This document shows positions 6,201-36,763 of a stretch of 42,129 nucleotides of DNA, one piece after another. The DNA is from a virus: UHGV virus genome UHGV-0179013. One strand, written 5' to 3'. The notes beneath the pieces are model-generated. The model did not search any database. It saw only the letters and a program-made list of their open reading frames with translations, and was not told where the DNA came from. The position numbers were made by a program, and so were the translations under genes. Numbering within the stretch: position 1 is the stretch's first letter; the number at the start of each line of letters is the position of its first letter.

Positions 6201-7597
6201 TGCCTCAGTACCTTCATGGTTGTCGGCATAAACGCCGGATGCGGTACGCGCGCTTCCTGTACCAGTTCATCTGCACGGGTGGCATCCTGGTATAATCGGT
6301 TTGCCAGCGTCAGCGCCGGAAGCGGCTGAGCGGTAGTAACCTGCAGAAGCTCGCTCAGACCAGAAGCACGCTCACTCATCGTAGAAAGGAATGCCGATCT
6401 GACGGCGAGAAGCGCGTTATACATATCATCGTCCGCGCGGTCTCCAGCCAGAACCAGCGCCGTATCAAGTTGCACAGAAACTCGTTGAGTTAACTCTTCT
6501 GCCTCGTCTGTACTGGCAGGTCTGGAGTCCGCAGCGGCACTGGTCATGGCACCAGTACATAGCACAACAATCAGCGTGCTCATGGTCGCCGAAATCGCTT
6601 TACTGCTGTCGGACTGCTGGTACTCCGTGCTGATTGAATTAGCCAGTTTTTCCAGCGCTGTAATTCGGTCATTAACGCTGCCGGCGCTGTTAAGAATTGC
6701 GTTTACCACGTCGGCGACGCCCTGGACAAACTCATCAGGGGTGTTGGAGCTGCTAAGCTGGCTCGACCTGTCGGTAACATTTTTCCGGTCCATTACCGAC
6801 TGGGCTGTTACCTTGTCAGCCAGTGCTCTCTCATCATCCACATCAGCAACTGACAATTTGCCAGCAACAGCAGAGGAACTACCGCCCACAGAGCCTTTAC
6901 TGTAACGTCCGTACCGGGTATTCCCGAACGTGGAGTTCAGGACATTACTGAGATTCGTTACCTGGCTGATGGTATTGTTAACCATGTTAGTCCAGAACGT
7001 GACCGTGCCTCTGATGGTGTTTATAGCCTGTGTGACACCGCGGATTTCACTTTTAACCCTGGCAATCGTACTCAGCACAGCAGTGCTTACCAGTTTCAGA
7101 TAGTTGGTTTTCACCGTGGCGCCTGCAACGGTACTGCCCGTGACGGCAAACACTTTAAGCCCTGATTCAATTGCCATCAGAGTAAATTCAAATACTCGCC
7201 CGTTCTCCATCGACCCGGAAATACGCAAACCATTCTCAGGGATGGAAACCGTTAATTCTCCCAGTGTAGGATGGACAAGCGTACCGCTTCCTTTTTTTTC
7301 ACAGGCAGCAATGAGCGACTGACGTTGAGTGATAACATCACCACCACCGTAAACCTGACTGTTCTGGATGATAAATCCGCGGAGAACAAAGCGCCGGGTT
7401 CCCCGACCAAGATCCTCTATCCAGGCCGTATCCCGATAAGGGTATTCATGTACAGCCTGACGTCTGCCGTGGCTACCTTCTTCCATCACCATGGCGAAAG
7501 GCACACCACGAAAGGAACTGGATCGTATTAATCCCCGCCAGTCATCGTTGTCACCGCCCCCCATCAGTGCAGTTATTGCATTCTGGATAATTGGCAT
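6197..7597 (-). CDS. Mu gp43-like DNA circulation protein (tail-associated)
   Basis: About 466 aa from ATG at 7597 with AGGAG RBS (ORF-track start at 7627 lies inside the terminator hairpin); position directly after the tape measure gene. Confidence 0.45.
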   Translation of the reverse strand: MPIIQNAITALMGGGDNDDWRGLIRSSSFRGVPFAMVMEEGSHGRRQAVHEYPYRDTAWIEDLGRGTRRFVLRGFIIQNSQVYGGGDVITQRQSLIAACEKKGSGTLVHPTLGELTVSIPENGLRISGSMENGRVFEFTLMAIESGLKVFAVTGSTVAGATVKTNYLKLVSTAVLSTIARVKSEIRGVTQAINTIRGTVTFWTNMVNNTISQVTNLSNVLNSTFGNTRYGRYSKGSVGGSSSAVAGKLSVADVDDERALADKVTAQSVMDRKNVTDRSSQLSSSNTPDEFVQGVADVVNAILNSAGSVNDRITALEKLANSISTEYQQSDSSKAISATMSTLIVVLCTGAMTSAAADSRPASTDEAEELTQRVSVQLDTALVLAGDRADDDMYNALLAVRSAFLSTMSERASGLSELLQVTTAQPLPALTLANRLYQDATRADELVQEARVPHPAFMPTTMKVLRQ

Positions 7598-24074: not shown

Positions 24075-24368
24075 TTACTCTTCAACCGCCGCACCTTCCG
24101 GCAACTCAACACAACCAAAGACAGGCATACCCGGCGAACGGTCATCTTCCACCGCTACCAGTTGCGATTCGGAATACCAGCGCTCAGTCGCACATTTATT
24201 GGCGGCCTGGTAGTAAATAAAGTACTGGTTCTCACCTGTCACATGCTGGGAGCGGGCCTGTACCTCGCCGAACTCATCACTAATGCGCAAGTTCACTAGT
24301 TGCCCAAGACAGAATTTAAAGTCTTTTGCTACAGGAAAGATTGCAGCGCCGTTTTGTTCTTTTTCCAT
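24075..24368 (-). CDS. Hypothetical phage protein (97 aa) downstream of lysis cassette
   Basis: ORF with start after the Rz terminator; function not recognised. Confidence 0.4.
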   Translation of the reverse strand: MEKEQNGAAIFPVAKDFKFCLGQLVNLRISDEFGEVQARSQHVTGENQYFIYYQAANKCATERWYSESQLVAVEDDRSPGMPVFGCVELPEGAAVEE

Positions 24369-25896: not shown

Positions 25897-25985
25897 TTTA
25901 TATTTTTGGAAGATTAGATCGACGATATGACAGGGGTACTGGTGCTATGCACCTCGCGAATACCCCTGTCGTATCGCCGGAAAGC

Positions 25986-26010
25986 AAAACCCCCGCACTG
26001 GCAGGGTTTT
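25986..26010. terminator. Bidirectional terminator-like hairpin (AAAACCC-N11-GGGTTTT) at the left edge of the accessory cassette
   Basis: A4/T4 tracts flanking a short GC stem, between the holin-proximal region and the cassette promoter. Confidence 0.3.
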
Positions 26011-26063
26011 GATGATTAAGCTGTGTGACGTAGTAACCACTCTTAACAGATTACGATAGTTTT

Positions 26064-26092
26064 TGCGTACGCGTTAGAGATTTCGTATGCTG
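26064..26092 (+). promoter_or_regulatory. Candidate sigma-70 promoter of the accessory cassette (TTGCGT-17 bp-TATGCT)
   Basis: -35 at 26064-26069, 17-bp spacer, -10 at 26087-26092; about 36 nt upstream of the ATG at 26128. Confidence 0.35.
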
Positions 26093-26127
26093 CAATGAAT
26101 AACATGCTAATAAGCAAGGATAAGGCG

Positions 26128-27213
26128 ATGGCGAGTGTAGACTTTAGCTTTGAAGGACTTCTAATAGAGAGAATTATCGCACACAGAGTTTTTCCTAAAA
26201 GTGCTGATAAAACCTTAACTCCCCCAAAAACCAGCAAATTTTTAATGGCATTCAAACAAGATGCATTAGATGCTTTTCAGGTGAGGATTACTGAGGCCTT
26301 AGCAAGTAAATCTCATGGAATTGAAATGTCTATTGGTGGTGTTGGTGATGATTGTTTTTTGAATCTGTCGGCTTCAACGTTTTCTAATGATACAGAGCAC
26401 TTCATCAAGGTTACAGAACGACTTGCAAGTAAACTTAGCGAGGCACAATACAACAGTTCTGCCCCTGGTGGGATATTGGCTGTATTGTCAGGGCGCGTAG
26501 GAAATGACTCACTTCCATTCCTTGCGGTAATAAAAGCTGAAACCCAAAATGGTTTTAGAACTATTGAAAATGATGAGCAGGTGACAATGGAGTTTATTGC
26601 TGAGCTTCTTTTAACTCCAGCGCAACGTTTTTATAAGATTGGTTTTATAGTCCAAACTATTGCTTTACCTCCTGATAGTGATGGTAATTATAGCAGCTCA
26701 TCTTATCGTGCATTTTTGTTTGACCATTTAATGACATCGACAGAAACAAAAAACGCCGCCGGATATTTCTACTCTCGATTTTTAGATATGGATATAAGCA
26801 AATCATCAAAAAAACTTACTCAAGATTTTTTTGAGAATACTAGGGACTTCATTAATACCGCACAAATAGAGGAAAGTAATAAACTTGCGCTGCATGAGGC
26901 TTTAAGAAGTGAAATGCGCTCAAGAAAGACCACATTAAGCACTGCGGATTTCGCAGAAACCAACCTCCCAGAAGAAATGCAGGGGGAGTATTTGGATTTT
27001 ATGAAGAACAAAAGCTTCCCTGCTGCCGCAGTAACTAAAGACAATGGTTATATTGAATCCAAATTAAAAATAAGAAGCAAGCTCGTATTCTCCAATGATG
27101 TATGGGTTTCCGTACCGCCAGATCAATTAAAAAATCTTGTGGAAATTATCCCGTCGGATGATAATGAATCAACGATTTTGAAAATAAAAGGGCGACTTAA
27201 AAGTCAACAATAA
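26128..27213 (+). CDS. Cassette gene A: 361-aa protein with YejK/NdpA (NA37 nucleoid-associated protein)-like features
   Basis: ATG at 26128 behind AAGGATAAGG RBS (ORF-track start 26095 lacks an RBS). Segments SAPGGILAVLSGRVGNDSLPFLAVIKAE and C-terminal ESTILKIKGR parallel E. coli YejK ([40 protein letters not shown]). Very AT-rich; stop overlaps gene B start (TAATG). Confidence 0.45.
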   Translation: MASVDFSFEGLLIERIIAHRVFPKSADKTLTPPKTSKFLMAFKQDALDAFQVRITEALASKSHGIEMSIGGVGDDCFLNLSASTFSNDTEHFIKVTERLASKLSEAQYNSSAPGGILAVLSGRVGNDSLPFLAVIKAETQNGFRTIENDEQVTMEFIAELLLTPAQRFYKIGFIVQTIALPPDSDGNYSSSSYRAFLFDHLMTSTETKNAAGYFYSRFLDMDISKSSKKLTQDFFENTRDFINTAQIEESNKLALHEALRSEMRSRKTTLSTADFAETNLPEEMQGEYLDFMKNKSFPAAAVTKDNGYIESKLKIRSKLVFSNDVWVSVPPDQLKNLVEIIPSDDNESTILKIKGRLKSQQ

Positions 27214-28205
27214 TGGATATCAATGAGTTCCGTGAGTTTTTACAGGCAAACCAGGATGCTTACGCAGCTTGGGGGCAGTTTGTGTCTGAAGAAATTTACA
27301 GTACTCTTTGTAGCTCTCTAGGGGATGACAAAGCCAAGCTCTTTCTAAAGATCCACTCAGAACCAAGACTAAAAAGTATAGCCTCGGCATTAGGAAAGGT
27401 CAGCCGTAAAGGATATGACAATCCAGTAGTGCAAATGACTGATTTGATTGGTGTACGCTTTGTAGTTCTACTCTCTGTTGAAATCAGAGCTATCAGTGAA
27501 ATAATTGAAAACTGTGATAAATGGGATGCGACTGTTTCTAAAGACTATTTATCAGAGATTGATGTTAACCCCAAAATTTTTGACTATCAATCGCGGCATT
27601 ATGAGGTAAGGCCTAAAGCTCAATTCGATTACTGTGGACAAAGCATAACGCCTGAAATGTGCTGCGAAGTTCAAGTTAGAACATTGCTTCAGCATGCCTA
27701 TGCTGAATTAGTCCATGATAGCGTCTACAAGCCTTCCGGTGATGTACCAAAATCTGCTGAAAGGCAAATAGCGCGTAGCATGGCCTTAATGGAAACAACG
27801 GATGATCTTTTTTGCAAAACAATGGAAATCTTGGCTGACAATAGCAAAGAGAGAAATGAGCTTTTAGAATTTCTTTCAGGATATTACGCAGAAAAAATAG
27901 GGAGGCAGTATATTGATGAAGATTTGCATGTTAACTTCTCCGTCATTGACACCTTTAAAGACCACATTGACGACAACTTACCAAATAAAATACACACACT
28001 TCTCAGTGAGAAAAAATACATCTCTGCACGGATAATTAATAGAGTTGAATACAATCCTCTATTCACTCAACCATGTATATTATTTGTGTACTGGTTAGCA
28101 AGCCAGATAGACTCAGGGGAAATGCTTTCAACATGGCCCCTGCCGGGCAATATTAGTGGGCTGGAGATGGTGCTAAGTGATTTAGGGAAAAGTATTTCTC
28201 GTTAG
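27213..28205 (+). CDS. Cassette gene B: RelA/SpoT-type nucleotide pyrophosphokinase (synthetase-fold) domain protein with about 150-aa C-terminal extension of unknown function; candidate toxSAS-like effector
   Basis: Synthetase motifs in order: RLKSIASALGKVSRK, DLIGVRFVV, DYQSRHYEV, EVQVRTLLQHAYAELVHDSVYK; compare RelQ RVKSPESIIEKLERK, DIAGLRVV, GYRSYHLVV, EIQIRTLAMNFWATIEHSLNYK. Translationally coupled to gene A. Confidence 0.7.
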   Translation: MDINEFREFLQANQDAYAAWGQFVSEEIYSTLCSSLGDDKAKLFLKIHSEPRLKSIASALGKVSRKGYDNPVVQMTDLIGVRFVVLLSVEIRAISEIIENCDKWDATVSKDYLSEIDVNPKIFDYQSRHYEVRPKAQFDYCGQSITPEMCCEVQVRTLLQHAYAELVHDSVYKPSGDVPKSAERQIARSMALMETTDDLFCKTMEILADNSKERNELLEFLSGYYAEKIGRQYIDEDLHVNFSVIDTFKDHIDDNLPNKIHTLLSEKKYISARIINRVEYNPLFTQPCILFVYWLASQIDSGEMLSTWPLPGNISGLEMVLSDLGKSISR

Positions 28206-28229
28206 AAAGCCAATCTTCCAACTGGCTTT
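28206..28229. terminator. Hairpin (AAAGCCA-N10-TGGCTTT) between convergent cassette gene B and Q gene; probable bidirectional terminator
   Basis: Perfect 7-bp inverted repeat in the 39-bp gap between two convergent stop codons. Confidence 0.4.
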
Positions 28230-28244
28230 CCTGAAGTTTAATAT

Positions 28245-28673
28245 TTAAAAGTCTAACATGGCAATGCATCCATCTACGAACCCCATTGCCGTCTGTAGTT
28301 CCTTTCTTATAGTCCCATCAGAGCACTTTCGCTTTTTAGCAATGGATCTCAACGAGATACCGATAACGAAGTGGGCAACAATCAATTCATATTCATCAGG
28401 CTTATATTTACGTAAGCGAGCCACACATCCATCAATCATGATTCCCTCATCGTCATCACACTGAAGTCGTGATTTCTTACCATGAGGTAAAAGTCCCTTG
28501 AATCCAGCTGCAATGGGTTGCCAGTCGACACCACTACTATCGGCTGCCGCCCATGCTCCCCATAAATCCATCACTTCATACATATCACGCATTGCAATTT
28601 CTCTTTCGTCTTCTCTGCTTAAAGGGTTAGCTCCCTGAGGGCTGAAATGTTTGAGTGATGCTTCCAGTTTCAT
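28245..28673 (-). CDS. Q-like late-gene antitermination protein
   Basis: About 142 aa from ATG at 28673; C-terminal region LIVAHFVIGISLRSIAKKRKCSDGTIRKELQTAMGFVDGCIAM resembles the region-4-like HTH of phage 82/21-type Q proteins; last gene of the early operon after replication genes. Confidence 0.55.
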   Translation of the reverse strand: MKLEASLKHFSPQGANPLSREDEREIAMRDMYEVMDLWGAWAAADSSGVDWQPIAAGFKGLLPHGKKSRLQCDDDEGIMIDGCVARLRKYKPDEYELIVAHFVIGISLRSIAKKRKCSDGTIRKELQTAMGFVDGCIAMLDF

Positions 28674-29005
28674 TGGATAGTGCCTCCCTTCTCGGCAGTG
28701 CCAAACCAGCCAGGATGCGCCCACTGAATATCGGTAACTTTATGGCCTTTCCCCCATAGCGATATCGAACGCATTGCAACGTAGTGCATAAATATTTTTT
28801 CCCGCTCAAGCCATTCATCCTCAGGCTTATCTTCAAGAAACTCATCGATTGCATCAGCAATAAGGCCAAAGCATTCGGGATAGTCGCTATGACTGATATC
28901 TATGTCTCGTACAGCATCCTGGAGTTCCATGAAGCGCTTTTGGGTGAATAAATAAGACATTTCGTGAATTAGACGATCCATTATTGGTTCCTTAAGCTTT
29001 TGCAT
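28670..29005 (-). CDS. Hypothetical phage protein (nin-region position)
   Basis: About 111 aa from ATG at 29005 (longer ORF-track start would overlap the DnaB-like gene). Confidence 0.35.
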   Translation of the reverse strand: MQKLKEPIMDRLIHEMSYLFTQKRFMELQDAVRDIDISHSDYPECFGLIADAIDEFLEDKPEDEWLEREKIFMHYVAMRSISLWGKGHKVTDIQWAHPGWFGTAEKGGTIQ

Positions 29006-34440: not shown

Positions 34441-34507
34441 TTAGCAACGTGCTAACATTAGCACACCACCAAACAATGTAGCAATACGCTACAAAGCACA
34501 TTGCTAA
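34441..34507. promoter_or_regulatory. Immunity-region operator cluster with TTAGCA/TGCTAA half-sites
   Basis: TTAGCAacgTGCTAA (34441-34455), TTAGCA (34459), TGTAGCAatacGCTACA (34478-34494), TGCTAA (34502) in the 105-bp divergent cro/repressor intergenic region. Confidence 0.5.
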
Positions 34508-34520
34508 CAAAGGGGCCAAC

Positions 34521-34976
34521 ATGGAAATCAAAGATATTCGATTAAATAACCTACAATCAGTAATTCAACGCAGCGGTTTAACGCAGACTGAATTGGCTTT
34601 GAAATGTGATATATCTCCTTCACTTATCAGCCAGATAATGACTAAACGCAGAAATATGGGGACCGCTTTTGCCCGGAAACTGGAAGGTAGGCTAAATCTT
34701 TCAGAAGGGTGGTTTGACATGCCTCACTCCCTGCTAGACTCGCCGTGGCATCTGGCAAAAATGGGAGAAAAAGACAATCTAGTGGCTGGTCAAGAACAAC
34801 CATTAAACAAAAGAGAGAGCCGTCTTGTAGAGCTATTCAGACAGATGCCTGAAAGCGAAAAAGACAGAATAATAAATGATTTAGCACAAAAAAAACGAGA
34901 TTTTGACAAACTTCTTGATGAACTAATGGCCGTGAAAGCTGCAAAGATGCCAATTGATAAAAATGAAAATGAATAA
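34521..34976 (+). CDS. CI-like prophage repressor, XRE-type HTH, without S24 peptidase (non-autocleavable) domain
   Basis: 151 aa; N-terminal HTH LTQTELALKCDISPSLISQIM; C-terminal part is charged/coiled-coil-like with no Ser-Lys peptidase motif; AAGGGG RBS. Confidence 0.65.
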   Translation: MEIKDIRLNNLQSVIQRSGLTQTELALKCDISPSLISQIMTKRRNMGTAFARKLEGRLNLSEGWFDMPHSLLDSPWHLAKMGEKDNLVAGQEQPLNKRESRLVELFRQMPESEKDRIINDLAQKKRDFDKLLDELMAVKAAKMPIDKNENE

Positions 34977-35001
34977 TAAAAACATTGTGTTATAAAAAAA
35001 C

Positions 35002-35023
35002 AGCAAAATATTAGCATTTTGCT
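35002..35023. terminator. Hairpin AGCAAAAT-ATTAGC-ATTTTGCT after repressor gene (possible terminator; loop carries an operator half-site)
   Basis: Perfect 8-bp inverted repeat preceded by an A7 run; loop sequence ATTAGC matches the TTAGCA operator half-site. Confidence 0.3.
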
Positions 35024-35024
35024 A

Positions 35025-35085
35025 TTGTCAAAATTAACGCGCAGCGCTACATTCACCTCATCCAGTAAATTAGTGAGGTGAATGT
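35025..35085 (+). promoter_or_regulatory. Candidate promoter (TTGTCA-17 bp-TACATT) overlapped by a perfect 13-bp inverted repeat TACATTCACCTCA-N11-TGAGGTGAATGTA that covers the -10, RBS and start region of the downstream gene
   Basis: Inverted repeat arms at 35048-35060 and 35074-35086; right arm contains the GAGGTG Shine-Dalgarno. Confidence 0.45.
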
Positions 35086-35086
35086 A

Positions 35087-35533
35087 ATGTTCAGTACAAA
35101 TCACGACCCAAGATCAATTAATTCTCTTTTGCTTTGTGCTCAGGTAGCGTTATTGAATGGTTCTGTTTCAAATATCGATATTATCAATGTTTTAGACGTA
35201 GCGCAGGACCTAATTTCATTAACCGTCACCAGCTCGGCTGATAATGAAATAAGCGCCACTAATTCAAACAAAGAACAACCCACACCACGATACGCTCCTT
35301 ACACTGGCAGTATTAACATTGGTCAACGCATACGACTGGCACGCAAATACTCTGACCTAAAACAGAGCCATATAGCTAACGCTTTAGGGGTAACCATTCA
35401 AGCGGTGTCCTTATGGGAAAATGACTCAACAGTTCCCACCTGCGACAAAATTATCCCACTGGCTAACGTACTTAAATGCGATCCGATGTGGTTATTATCA
35501 GGTGCTCCTTTAGAAGTCACAGAGGAATCCTGA
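35087..35533 (+). CDS. Hypothetical protein with C-terminal XRE-type HTH domain (148 aa)
   Basis: ATG at 35087 behind GAGGTG (ORF-track start 35078 is GTG); HTH IGQRIRLARKYSDLKQSHIANALGVTIQAVSLWEN; AT-rich locus downstream of repressor (rex-like position). Confidence 0.5.
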   Translation: MFSTNHDPRSINSLLLCAQVALLNGSVSNIDIINVLDVAQDLISLTVTSSADNEISATNSNKEQPTPRYAPYTGSINIGQRIRLARKYSDLKQSHIANALGVTIQAVSLWENDSTVPTCDKIIPLANVLKCDPMWLLSGAPLEVTEES

Positions 35534-35955
35534 TGATGAAAACCCATGTTGAAATGTTGGAAAGCATCGCAGCTGATATTGTGGAAAACACCTCGTTACT
35601 TGAGGTTATTTACCGCATCAATGAATTGCCACCAGAAGCCGATAATGCAATTGCTTGCCTTATTCGCTCAATGCAGAAAACGCTGGATGGTGTTAATGAG
35701 TATGTTTCGATGTTACCCACTACTACTCGAGGTGATAAAGCAAAAGATAGAATCGATATTGATGATATCGCTGATGATGTATTTAATGTGACTATTACAG
35801 TGAACCAGCTTAACGAACTGGCACATATATACAATGAGTCATATTTCACCGATAAAGATAGTGACGATCCAAAATGCCTGATGTCAGCAACAATTTATGA
35901 CTACGCAAGAAAAGTTAAGGATGAACTGAAAACCATCGAAACTAAATTAGGTTAA
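35533..35955 (+). CDS. Hypothetical acidic protein (140 aa), coupled to upstream HTH gene
   Basis: Start overlaps upstream stop (ATGATGA context); AT-rich; no recognisable motif. Confidence 0.4.
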   Translation: MMKTHVEMLESIAADIVENTSLLEVIYRINELPPEADNAIACLIRSMQKTLDGVNEYVSMLPTTTRGDKAKDRIDIDDIADDVFNVTITVNQLNELAHIYNESYFTDKDSDDPKCLMSATIYDYARKVKDELKTIETKLG

Positions 35956-36010
35956 TAAATAAAATTTTTAATAACGCCTTAATCGGTGGGACATCACTCA
36001 CCCTGAGGAA

Positions 36011-36307
36011 ATGCAAATGAATATTATCGTCAGAAATGAAGTCGTGAATAACAAAGCCCATCCAGCCAATCAGGATGACGACATTCTTTACATAAACAAA
36101 GCCCACAAAACAGCAGAGTGTGCCAATAAATATGCACATGAACTCCGTGCTGAATTTACCCAGTTGCTTATGCCAGCAATCACACGCACTGATGTGAAGG
36201 TAGCGGGAAGATTCACCTCATTACTTAATGAGCTTTGCTTCATGACAAAAATGACGATGGAGAACACCTCAAAGGGGGGGGGCAATAATGACGTTTCTGA
36301 AAGATAA
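36011..36307 (+). CDS. Hypothetical early protein (98 aa)
   Basis: ATG behind GAGGA RBS; AT-rich. Confidence 0.4.
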   Translation: MQMNIIVRNEVVNNKAHPANQDDDILYINKAHKTAECANKYAHELRAEFTQLLMPAITRTDVKVAGRFTSLLNELCFMTKMTMENTSKGGGNNDVSER

Positions 36308-36400
36308 AGCAGCACACAAGACAGCAAAACTTTTCGCCTCTTATGGAAATAGTTATCTGCATATTGCAAACCTTTTTCTGCGCAAGGCTTACGGGCGGTA

Positions 36401-36763
36401 GTGACAATGAAAAACAACATCATTGAAATTTATCGCCGCCGCATTGCTATTGCGACATTAAACCGAATGAAGCGCAAGACAGGAGGTTATTGTCTCTCCG
36501 TAAATATGCCCGATGACAATATTCAGGTTATCGAGATTAACGAAGAATCAATGCTGAAACTTTTGCTGCGCTTCGAAAAACAGGCTCGGACTGAATTCAA
36601 CACAGAAGCGGAAACATTTCTTCGCCAGACGTATATGAAAAGCGTCGATATCAATGGACACACCGAATATCTGACCGAAACCGGAAAGATGATTGTTGAC
36701 GAGATTTTTGCGGAATTAATTAAACACGCGAAAGAGAAATACGTATGTGGAGGAATTAACTGA
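36401..36763 (+). CDS. Hypothetical early protein (120 aa)
   Basis: ORF in early-left operon; stop overlaps next ATG (TGATG). Confidence 0.4.
   Translation: MTMKNNIIEIYRRRIAIATLNRMKRKTGGYCLSVNMPDDNIQVIEINEESMLKLLLRFEKQARTEFNTEAETFLRQTYMKSVDINGHTEYLTETGKMIVDEIFAELIKHAKEKYVCGGIN

What the first reader, a model, noticed from the sequence alone, without database searches (positions are those of the whole stretch)
26064..28229. Candidate novel two-gene defence/abortive-infection cassette: YejK/NdpA-like protein coupled to a RelA/SpoT-type pyrophosphokinase
Two plus-strand genes (26128-27213 and 27213-28205) sit in inverted orientation inside the minus-strand late region, exactly in the Q-to-lysis gap that lambdoid phages use for cargo such as Stx toxins. 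The locus is conspicuously AT-rich compared with the phage backbone. It has its own candidate promoter, terminator-like hairpins on both flanks, and the genes overlap by one base (TAATG). Gene B carries the ordered synthetase motifs of the RelA/SpoT (small alarmone synthetase / toxSAS) fold plus about 150 aa of unknown function, an architecture reminiscent of fused toxSAS systems such as CapRel. Gene A shows distant resemblance to the YejK/NdpA nucleoid-associated family, which I cannot link to any described toxSAS antitoxin or defence partner.
Basis: partly seen in the sequence, partly recalled or inferred. Interest (0 to 1): 0.88.

Follow-up and report, generated by a model that had tools for sequence, protein, structure and literature searches.

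The report
Prophage-borne Type I PANGU defence pair
The two genes are real and encode a YejK-like DNA-binding protein plus an alarmone-synthetase toxin, but the pair belongs to the "Type I PANGU" anti-phage system described in an April 2026 preprint, so it is a new prophage-carried member of a known system rather than a new system.

Summary
Two plus-strand genes (26128-27213 and 27213-28205, sharing one base in TAATG) form an AT-rich 2.2-kb insert between the antiterminator Q gene and the lysis genes of a lambdoid prophage, probably from Citrobacter. Gene A is an NA37/YejK-family protein and gene B a RelA/SpoT synthetase with a helical C-terminal domain.

The pair is not novel. Both proteins align over their full length with Pag1A and Pag1B of Ferrimonas futtsuensis (32% and 34% identity, E 3e-62 and 1e-50). 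That is the tested prototype of Type I PANGU (bioRxiv 10.64898/2026.04.06.716658). In 46 of 46 assessable genomes the NA37 gene sits directly upstream of the synthetase gene, and all catalytic residues are invariant.

In the preprint's model, A is a nucleoid-bound sensor and activator, not an antitoxin. Phage nucleases destroy the chromosome and release A. A binds B's C-terminal domain, and B then makes (pp)pGpp and depletes ATP and GTP, aborting the infection.

New here is the context. The slot just downstream of this Q allele holds different inverted cassettes in other phages: Kiwa, two other NA37 pairs, and unknown cassettes in Stx phages.

Verdict: new member of a known kind, with modest interest.

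The parts
26128..27213 (+). pag1A-like gene: 361-aa NA37/YejK-family nucleoid-associated protein (40.3 kDa), the presumed sensor and activator
   Evidence: Pfam NA37 E 1.9e-12. 32% identity over the full length to F. futtsuensis Pag1A, E 3e-62. In the AF2 model (pLDDT 80) the only significant PDB match is E. coli YejK 9be2, E 4.7e-8. The exact sequence is annotated 'nucleoid-associated protein [Citrobacter]'.
27213..28205 (+). pag1B-like gene: 330-aa GRel-type toxSAS (37.7 kDa). Synthetase (toxSYNTH) domain about residues 1-175, linker helix 180-233, helical acidic C-terminal domain 238-323
   Evidence: Pfam RelA_SpoT E 1.6e-16. 34% identity over the full length to F. futtsuensis Pag1B, E 1e-50. 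AF2 pLDDT 86.5; best PDB matches are RelQ/SAS1 and RelP (E about 1e-8, target TM 0.7-0.8), then CapRel 7ztb (E 9e-6). The G-loop tyrosine Y125 and the catalytic residues are invariant. The C-terminal domain has net charge -6 and pI 4.98.
26116..26121 (+). Shine-Dalgarno-like AAGGAT, 6 nt upstream of the gene A start codon
   Evidence: Read directly from the sequence.
26063..26091 (+). Weak candidate promoter for the cassette: TTGCGT, 17 nt, TATGCT. The -35 hexamer lies in the conserved phage backbone element and the -10 hexamer in the cargo
   Evidence: Read from the sequence. It is below the threshold of the consensus scan. Comparable TTGCGT-N17/18-TATxxT arrangements are seen by eye in the Kiwa and Stx1a cargo variants (alignment). 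This is inference only.
28205..28230 (.). Hairpin between the convergent stop codons of gene B and Q (GAAAGCCA ... TGGCTTTC)
   Evidence: Folding gives -10.4 kcal/mol on the plus strand (z -2.8) and -16.3 on the minus strand (z -3.3). No U-run follows on either strand.
28245..28592 (-). Antiterminator Q gene (115 aa by comparison with homologues; the ORF is open to 28724). It is convergent with the cassette and travels with it
   Evidence: Pfam Phage_antitermQ E 6e-46. Called as 115 aa in related prophages. 83-87% identical to the Q of Stx1a and Stx2a phages and of Klebsiella phages.
25981..26088 (-). Conserved backbone element marking the far edge of the cargo slot. It ends in a minus-strand intrinsic terminator (26006-25991 plus T-run) and is presumed to be the late promoter / Q-utilisation / terminator region
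   Evidence: Conserved at 82-86% in phages that carry other cargo. Terminator found. Its function is inferred, not shown.

Best explanation
The cassette is a prophage-encoded Type I PANGU abortive-infection system.

Shown here:
- Gene A is a YejK/NA37-family protein and gene B is a RelA/SpoT small-alarmone-synthetase-fold enzyme with a helical acidic C-terminal domain.
- Both are full-length homologues of the tested Pag1A and Pag1B of Ferrimonas futtsuensis.
- The two genes are always adjacent, translationally coupled and co-evolving.
- The pair is mobile cargo in the slot directly downstream of the phage Q gene.

Inferred by homology from the preprint:
- In the lysogen, A dimers are held on the chromosome and B sits in the cytoplasm as an inactive tetramer.
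- An incoming lytic phage that degrades host DNA (for T4, EndoII plus other nucleases) frees A.
- A binds B's C-terminal domain and breaks the tetramer into an A2B heterotrimer.
- The heterotrimer transfers pyrophosphate from ATP to GTP, GDP or GMP, making (pp)pGpp and depleting NTPs.
- Transcription and translation stop and the infection aborts.

My own inference: a lambdoid prophage does not degrade the host chromosome when induced, so it needs no separate self-immunity factor. Its own early transcript through Q would run antisense into the cassette.
For: - Domains.
- Folds.
- The identity of locus L040 with PANGU^Ff was checked residue by residue. All 15 numbered residues quoted in the preprint match: Pag1B Y129, R258, E272, R279, R306, H314, E337; Pag1A K6, E47, K52, K200, R203, K204, E278, D282.
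- Full-length homology to that system.
- 46 of 49 genome loci have an NA37 gene directly upstream on the same strand, mostly overlapping by 4 or 1 nt. The other three are cut by contig ends or truncated.
- A-to-A and B-to-B pairwise distances correlate at r = 0.92 over 990 locus pairs.
- R52, K54, K62, D77, R82, Y125, S127, H129, E152, Q154 and R156 are invariant in 45 of 45.
- Protein sizes of 40.3 and 37.7 kDa are close to PANGU^Pa at 40.6 and 37.5 kDa.
- The synthetase domain is acidic (net -9). The closest solved folds are (p)ppGpp synthetases rather than the tRNA-modifying CapRel. This fits a nucleotide substrate.
- Mechanism and phenotype in homologues.
- The same slot in related phages carries the known defence system Kiwa.
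Against: - The mechanism rests on a single preprint that is not peer-reviewed, and on orthologues only 32-34% identical. This Citrobacter/Klebsiella orthologue is untested.
- The Pag1B residues whose mutation abolished Pag1A binding (R258, R306, H314) correspond to D254, Q298 and T307 here.
- Across the family, the net charge of the C-terminal domain ranges from -9 to +3, so 'DNA mimicry by acidity' is not universal.
- No convincing promoter was found.
- The 2023 PADLOC database has no model for the pair. It gives only a partial PDC-S33 hit on B.
Confidence: 0.8

Rival explanations
1. It is a classical two-gene toxSAS toxin-antitoxin module: B is a constitutively toxic synthetase and A is its antitoxin.
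For: Other toxSAS families (FaRel, FaRel2, PhRel, CapRel) are toxin-antitoxin systems, split or fused (background cited). The tight one-base gene overlap is typical of toxin-antitoxin pairs.
Against: In the validated homologues, B alone, A alone and A plus B are all non-toxic. A is required for B's activity in vitro. A DNA-binding-dead A makes the pair toxic.
Confidence: 0.05
2. The architecture and defence role are the same, but this orthologue uses different chemistry: tRNA 3'-CCA pyrophosphorylation (as in CapRel and FaRel2) or (pp)pApp synthesis (as in FaRel and Tas1) instead of (pp)pGpp.
For: Substrate choice in toxSAS enzymes cannot be read reliably from sequence. This protein is only 34% identical to the assayed one. 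CapRel is a significant structural neighbour (E 9e-6).
Against: The synthetase domain is acidic (net -9), which is unfavourable for tRNA binding. The best structural matches are the (p)ppGpp synthetases RelQ and RelP. Two distant orthologues both behaved alike in inhibiting coupled transcription-translation. The Ff enzyme made pppGpp and did not label tRNA.
Confidence: 0.1
3. The module is the same but the trigger differs. A is displaced from DNA, or B is engaged, by a phage protein (for example a DNA-mimic or DNA-binding protein) rather than by bulk chromosome degradation.
For: The A-B interface residues and the DNA-contact residues are not conserved. T1 and T5 also degrade host DNA but were not restricted by the tested systems. 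The pair is carried by temperate phages, whose main competitors include other temperate phages that do not degrade the chromosome.
Against: T4 escape mutants mapped repeatedly to denA for both PANGU types, and A relocalises away from the nucleoid on infection.
Confidence: 0.12
4. It is not a defence system. It is a lysogenic-conversion module in which the phage supplies a nucleoid protein and an alarmone synthetase to adjust host physiology or its own lysis-lysogeny decision.
For: It sits in a moron position, like stx and other conversion genes. NCBI annotates the genes simply as 'nucleoid-associated protein' and 'GTP pyrophosphokinase'.
Against: The homologues confer 3-4 log protection. The family also occurs outside prophages in many phyla, always as the same pair. 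The same slot holds Kiwa in a related phage.
Confidence: 0.04

Closest known systems
Type I PANGU (Pag1A nucleoid-associated protein plus Pag1B/GRel toxSAS), bioRxiv 10.64898/2026.04.06.716658; prototype PANGU^Ff from Ferrimonas futtsuensis DSM 18154 (locus L040), cryo-EM structure PDB 9UFP
   Same: Same gene order and overlapping bicistron, and the same protein sizes. A is NA37/YejK-like. B has an N-terminal toxSYNTH domain, a helical linker and an acidic helical C-terminal domain. Both proteins align over their full length (E 3e-62 and 1e-50). The G-loop tyrosine and catalytic residues are conserved.
   Different: Identity to the characterised proteins is only 32-34%. The experimentally probed interface residues (R258, R306, H314) and two of the three DNA-contact residues are not conserved. 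This copy is carried in a lambdoid prophage slot next to Q, and the preprint never mentions prophages. This orthologue is untested.
CapRel^SJ46 (fused toxSAS toxin-antitoxin of Salmonella phage SJ46, PDB 7ZTB)
   Same: It is a prophage-encoded toxSAS with a C-terminal regulatory domain and acts by abortive infection. The synthetase fold is shared (Foldseek E 9e-6).
   Different: CapRel is a single polypeptide, auto-inhibited by its C-terminal domain. It is triggered by direct binding of phage capsid or other proteins, and it pyrophosphorylates tRNA. Here a separate YejK-like protein is needed as activator, and the homologue's isolated synthetase domain is inactive and did not label tRNA.
Housekeeping small alarmone synthetases RelQ/SAS1 and RelP/SAS2 (PDB 5DED, 6EWZ)
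   Same: These are the best structural and sequence matches for the catalytic domain. They carry out the same reaction, ATP plus GTP/GDP to (p)ppGpp. Like Pag1B in its resting state, they are homotetramers.
   Different: They have no C-terminal partner-binding domain and no NA37 partner, they are not mobile cargo, and they serve the stress response rather than immunity.
Type II PANGU (Pag2A plus transmembrane Pag2B) and DefensePredictor DS-1 (hypothetical protein plus the YejK-domain protein WP_000355468)
   Same: They use a YejK-like sensor paired with an effector. Look-alike NA37 plus roughly 400-aa two-TM pairs occupy the very same Q-linked slot in Klebsiella phage Kp4865-4, and an NA37 plus 405-aa pair does so in phage P7641.
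   Different: The effector is a membrane protein, not a nucleotide pyrophosphokinase.
E. coli YejK (PDB 9BE2)
   Same: Same Pfam family and same fold.
   Different: YejK is a stand-alone chromosomal housekeeping protein with only about 14% identity in the structural alignment and no effector partner.

Membership tests
Type I PANGU | Two-gene operon with a YejK-like NA37 protein (at least 300 aa) encoded directly next to the effector (gap under 40 bp) | tested here: met
   A is 361 aa, with NA37 E 1.9e-12. The A stop and B start overlap by 1 nt. The same arrangement is found in 46 of 46 assessable family loci.
Type I PANGU | The effector is a homologue of Pag1B (GRel toxSAS): N-terminal toxSYNTH domain, alpha-helical linker and C-terminal partner-binding domain | tested here: met
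   Full-length BLASTP alignment to Pag1B^Ff, E 1e-50, 34% identity, residues 1-325. The AF2 model shows a SAS fold, helix 180-233 and a helical C-terminal domain. GRel subfamily assignment is by homology to the preprint's protein only. No GRel reference profile was available.
Type I PANGU | Pag1A homology to a validated Pag1A | tested here: met
   BLASTP against Pag1A^Ff: E 3e-62, 32% identity over 361 aa. The identity of L040 with PANGU^Ff was verified by 15 of 15 numbered residues.
Type I PANGU | Intact catalytic site, including the G-loop tyrosine (Y129 in Pag1B^Ff, essential for defence) | tested here: met
   Y125 aligns with Y129 and is invariant. D77, R82, E152, Q154 and R156 are invariant.
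Type I PANGU | Acidic 'DNA-mimicking' C-terminal domain of the effector | tested here: met
   Window C-terminal domain: net charge -6, pI 4.98; Ff: -9. Caveat: across the family the range is -9 to +3, so this feature is not universal.
Type I PANGU | Conservation of the mapped A-B interface residues (Pag1B R258, R306, H314) and the Pag1A DNA-contact residues (K200, R203, K204) | tested here: not met
   The equivalents here are D254, Q298, T307 and T205, K208, N209, and these columns vary across the family. The preprint itself reports pair-specific co-evolution, so these residues do not define the family. A-to-B distance correlation is r = 0.92.
Type I PANGU | Anti-phage protection that requires both genes, with no toxicity in the absence of phage, and (pp)pGpp synthesis only in the presence of A | not testable with these tools
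   Experimental features. They are shown only for the Ff and Pa homologues.
Classical toxSAS toxin-antitoxin systems (FaRel, FaRel2, PhRel, CapRel) | The toxSAS is toxic on its own and is neutralised by a cognate antitoxin gene or domain | not testable with these tools
   Not tested for this orthologue. It was tested and not met in the Ff homologue according to the preprint. No known toxSAS antitoxin domain (such as Panacea/DUF4065) was found in A.
Defence systems catalogued in PADLOC-DB v2.0.0 (2023) | Full-length match of both proteins to the models of one system | tested here: not met
   There is only a partial hit of B to the single-gene candidate PDC-S33 (E 5e-12, profile positions 53-177 of 349). 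A has no meaningful hit.

The most novel reading that the evidence does not exclude
The site directly downstream of this Q allele, upstream of the conserved presumed late-promoter/terminator element, is a dedicated swap-in slot for inverted defence cassettes in lambdoid prophages of Citrobacter, Klebsiella and E. coli, including Stx phages.

The conserved backbone edge may supply the -35 hexamer (TTGCGT) that expresses whatever cargo lands there in the lysogen. Convergent early transcription through Q may shut the cargo down on induction.

If so, the unannotated inverted cassettes in the same slot of Stx1a phages (3 genes) and of Stx2a and mEp460-type phages (2 genes), which match no Pfam or PADLOC family, are new defence systems sitting next to the Shiga toxin genes.
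Probability: 0.3. Interest if true: 0.55.

Novelty: new member of a known kind. Interest (0 to 1): 0.35.

Why it matters
For the finding as stated, the value is mainly confirmatory. A reader working from raw sequence recovered a system that was named only in 2026. The analysis shows that Type I PANGU is carried and spread by temperate phages of Enterobacteriaceae. Exact or near-exact copies occur on hundreds of Klebsiella and Citrobacter contigs.

That makes PANGU a prophage-encoded trait. It probably protects lysogens against lytic phages that degrade host DNA, which is relevant to phage therapy against Klebsiella.

The Q-linked slot is the practical lead. It is a small, sharply bounded place to look for further defence systems, including in Shiga-toxin phages.

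Tried and rejected
- Near-identity DNA searches of the cassette found nothing in the phage collection or in complete E. coli genomes. Only about 100-nt backbone fragments matched.
- tblastn of A against phages found nothing. B hit only distant RelA/SpoT proteins.
- Rfam and tRNA scans of the whole window found nothing, so the conserved 25981-26088 element is not a known RNA family.
- A sequence search of the PDB did not find the PANGU complex 9UFP, and it was not in the Foldseek PDB library either. A direct structural comparison with the solved complex was therefore impossible.
- The promoter scan gave no site upstream of gene A, and overall counts were no higher than in shuffled sequence. I dropped the 'own promoter' claim to a weak candidate.
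- I considered that the B C-terminal domain might be a CapRel-like internal antitoxin. I rejected this on the preprint's truncation result and the lack of meaningful structural superposition (rmsd 13-17 A).
- I checked whether the AT-rich stretch at 34500-36500 is a second cargo island. It is the immunity region, with HTH repressor genes.
- GRel is not mentioned in the searchable text of the toxSAS classification papers, so the subfamily label could not be checked independently.
Full report
**1. Observation**

The ORF list shows two plus-strand ORFs, 26095/26128-27213 and 27213-28205. They lie among minus-strand phage genes.

- Gene A starts at 26128. Its homologues are 361 aa and align from residue 1 at up to 97% identity.
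- The TAA stop of A (27211-27213) shares its last base with the ATG of B.
- GC falls to 0.37-0.41 over 26001-28500, against roughly 0.50-0.56 elsewhere.
- Pfam assigns A to NA37/YejK (E 1.9e-12) and B to RelA_SpoT (E 1.6e-16, residues 52-175).
- The neighbours are an antiterminator Q (28245-28724, minus strand, E 6e-46), a holin, a lysozyme and, beyond Q, DnaB- and DnaC-like replication genes.
- The window is therefore a lambdoid prophage, and the pair sits between Q and the lysis genes.
- The exact protein sequences are on record as Citrobacter 'nucleoid-associated protein' and 'GTP pyrophosphokinase'. Variants in the same 90%-identity cluster are common in Klebsiella.

The sequence-level observation is confirmed. 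The claimed promoter and flanking terminators are weak.

- No consensus promoter lies upstream of A, and overall counts equal those of shuffled sequence.
- The two canonical terminators on the left flank are on the minus strand.
- The hairpin between B and Q (28205-28230) is stable but has no U-run.

**2. What it is**

Neither PADLOC-DB v2 (only a partial PDC-S33 hit on B), NCBIfam nor PHROGs gives the pair a function. A full-text search for toxSAS together with 'nucleoid-associated' found one preprint: Li et al., bioRxiv 10.64898/2026.04.06.716658, dated 6 April 2026.

The preprint defines PANGU, a class of two-gene defence systems built around YejK-like nucleoid-associated proteins. Type I pairs the nucleoid protein Pag1A with Pag1B. 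Pag1B is a GRel-subfamily toxSAS with an N-terminal toxSYNTH domain, a helical linker and an acidic C-terminal 'DMK' domain.

I tested membership directly.

- A scan of one genome per species with a profile of the B family returned 49 loci, including Ferrimonas futtsuensis DSM 18154 (L040).
- In L040, all seven Pag1B residues and all eight Pag1A residues numbered in the preprint are at exactly the stated positions. L040 is therefore the tested PANGU^Ff.
- Window A aligns with Pag1A^Ff over the full length (32% identity, E 3e-62).
- Window B aligns with Pag1B^Ff over residues 1-325, including the C-terminal domain (34% identity, E 1e-50).
- In 46 of the 49 loci an NA37 gene lies immediately upstream on the same strand, usually overlapping by 4 or 1 nt. 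The remaining three are cut by a contig end or truncated.
- The loci span Gamma- and Betaproteobacteria, Verrucomicrobiota, Bacteroidota, Firmicutes, Actinobacteria and Planctomycetota.
- Pairwise divergence of A tracks that of B (r = 0.92 over 990 locus pairs).

Structure predictions agree.

- The B model (pLDDT 86.5) has a small-alarmone-synthetase fold. Its best solved matches are RelQ/SAS1 and RelP (E about 1e-8, target TM 0.7-0.8), then CapRel (E 9e-6). The fold is followed by a long helix (180-233) and a helical domain (238-323).
- The A model (pLDDT 80) has a single significant solved match, E. coli YejK 9be2 (E 4.7e-8).
- The G-loop tyrosine (Y125, equivalent to Y129 in Ff) is invariant. 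So are R52, K54, K62, D77, R82, S127, H129, E152, Q154 and R156.
- The C-terminal domain is acidic (net -6, pI 4.98).

**3. How it most likely works**

The following is shown for homologues in the preprint and inferred for this locus.

- Pag1A dimers bind long DNA non-specifically and colocalise with the nucleoid. Pag1B alone is an inactive tetramer.
- T4 infection degrades the chromosome and releases Pag1A. EndoII (denA) is necessary for this but not sufficient.
- Pag1A binds the C-terminal domain of Pag1B with nanomolar affinity and converts the tetramer into an A2B heterotrimer.
- The heterotrimer makes pppGpp, ppGpp or pGpp from ATP plus GTP, GDP or GMP and depletes NTPs. Transcription and translation are blocked.
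- Neither gene alone nor the pair is toxic without phage. A Pag1A mutant that cannot bind DNA makes the pair toxic. tRNA is not labelled.

A is therefore an activator and sensor, not an antitoxin.

Two local observations fit a nucleotide-substrate enzyme: the acidic synthetase domain (net -9) and the closer structural likeness to (p)ppGpp synthetases than to CapRel.

My own inference is that a lambdoid prophage does not destroy the host chromosome on induction. It can therefore carry this sensor without a self-immunity gene.

Caveats:

- The mechanism comes from one preprint.
- Identity to the assayed proteins is about one third.
- The residues mutated to break the A-B interface (R258, R306, H314) and two of the three DNA-contact residues are not conserved here or across the family.
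- The C-terminal net charge across the family ranges from -9 to +3. The 'DNA mimic' description therefore does not hold uniformly.

**4. Context: a Q-linked cargo slot**

In Citrobacter and Klebsiella genomes the identical or near-identical pair always lies convergent with a 115-aa Q gene. The prophages around it have different lysis cassettes and different replication modules. Q and the cassette therefore move together.

The Q protein is 83-87% identical to the Q of Stx1a- and Stx2a-converting phages, of mEp460-type phages and of several Klebsiella phages. BLASTN against these phages shows homology ending inside the 3' end of Q (window about 28253-28299). It resumes at a conserved element of about 100 nt (window 25981-26088) that ends in a minus-strand intrinsic terminator.

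In every phage examined the slot holds an inverted cassette:

| Phage | Cassette in the slot |
|---|---|
| Klebsiella phage ST846-OXA48phi9.1 | Kiwa: KwaA E 1.6e-82, KwaB E 5e-144 |
| Klebsiella phage Kp4865-4 | NA37 protein plus a 402-aa protein with two C-terminal TM helices (Type II PANGU-like) |
| Klebsiella phage P7641 | NA37 protein plus a 405-aa protein |
| mEp460_4F5, vB_EcoS-569R4, Stx2a_1447 | Two genes with no Pfam or PADLOC match |
| Stx1a phages | Three genes with no Pfam or PADLOC match, directly upstream of stx1AB |

I infer that the conserved element holds the late promoter, the Q-utilisation site and a terminator. There is no conserved sequence between Q and the cargo, and the element immediately precedes stx1 or the holin. 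This inference is not shown.

The only promoter-like feature for the cassette is weak: TTGCGT(26063-68)-17-TATGCT. Its -35 hexamer lies in that conserved element.

**5. Comparison with what is known, and novelty**

The pair meets every sequence-testable defining feature of Type I PANGU. The features it fails, the specific interface and DNA-contact residues, are variable across the family and are not defining.

- It is not a classical toxSAS toxin-antitoxin system or a CapRel-like fused system.
- A defence pair containing a YejK domain (DS-1: a hypothetical protein plus WP_000355468) was independently validated in E. coli by DefensePredictor.
- The preprint does not mention prophages, so carriage in a lambdoid Q-linked slot is an addition, not a new kind of system.

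I rate it a new member of a known kind.

**6. Verdict**

The feature is real and the domains were read correctly. The function is very probably anti-phage abortive infection by the PANGU mechanism. I put confidence at about 0.8 for membership plus mechanism as reported.

Interest is modest (0.35), because a specialist who knows the 2026 preprint would not be surprised. The most novel reading still open is that the Q-linked slot is a general defence hotspot whose unannotated cassettes in Stx phages are new systems (probability about 0.3).

Noticed in passing
window 26078-28299 (slot); L058 2586-3978; L060 4872-7071; L064 3845-6206: The site just downstream of this Q allele is a cargo slot. In related phages it holds other inverted cassettes: Kiwa (KwaA/KwaB) in Klebsiella phage ST846-OXA48phi9.1, an NA37 plus 402-aa two-TM protein pair (Type II PANGU-like) in Kp4865-4, and an NA37 plus 405-aa pair in P7641.
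   Followed up: partly
L059 4879-6986 (Stx1a phage Stx1_499); L063 3864-5427 (Stx2a_1447); L062 3855-5250; L061 4390-5316: In Stx1a phages the same slot holds three inverted genes (350, 130 and 221 aa) directly upstream of stx1AB. In Stx2a_1447, vB_EcoS-569R4 and mEp460 it holds two inverted genes (about 180 aa and about 290-340 aa). None matches Pfam or PADLOC, so they are candidate unknown defence cassettes.
   Followed up: partly
window 25981-26088 (minus strand): An element of about 100 nt is conserved at 82-86% among phages with different cargo. It ends in a GC hairpin plus T-run (26006-25985). A second strong minus-strand terminator lies at 25899-25874 (-17 kcal/mol, z -5.4), before the holin. 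It is probably the late promoter / Q-utilisation / terminator region. There is no Rfam match.
   Followed up: partly
Family alignments of 45-46 loci (L001-L048) against L040: The residues the PANGU preprint mutated are not conserved across the family: Pag1B R258, R306, H314 for the interface and Pag1A K200 and K204 for DNA contact. The net charge of the effector C-terminal domain ranges from -9 to +3, so the 'acidic DNA mimic' description fits Ff and this window but not all members.
   Followed up: yes
L050-L052, 1253-1546 (Klebsiella prophages carrying the same cassette): A 97-aa gene with the Pfam Acb2_Tad1_hairpin domain (an anti-CBASS/anti-Thoeris sponge family) lies downstream of the lysis genes. 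These prophages thus carry both a defence and a likely counter-defence gene. The similarly placed 97-aa ORF in the window (24075-24368) has no Pfam match.
   Followed up: no
window 34500-36500: This is a second AT-rich stretch (GC 0.38-0.43). It holds plus-strand HTH_3 repressor-type genes (34521-34976 and 35078-35533) and small unknown ORFs. It is the prophage immunity region rather than another cargo island.
   Followed up: partly
H40-H47 (E. coli chromosomes, e.g. NZ_CP064847 927362-929524): Eight of 5426 complete E. coli genomes carry a cassette 76% identical in DNA to the Kp4865-4 NA37 plus TM pair, annotated 'hypothetical protein | nucleoid-associated protein'. The Type I pair of the window has no near match in complete E. 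coli genomes.
   Followed up: no
H18: Vibrio phage 10N.261.45.F7_PE002A (PQ189320, 8.1 kb), 6676-7155: A small 8-kb Vibrio phage-like element encodes a RelA/SpoT-domain protein 35% identical to the synthetase domain of gene B. Its neighbours were not examined.
   Followed up: no
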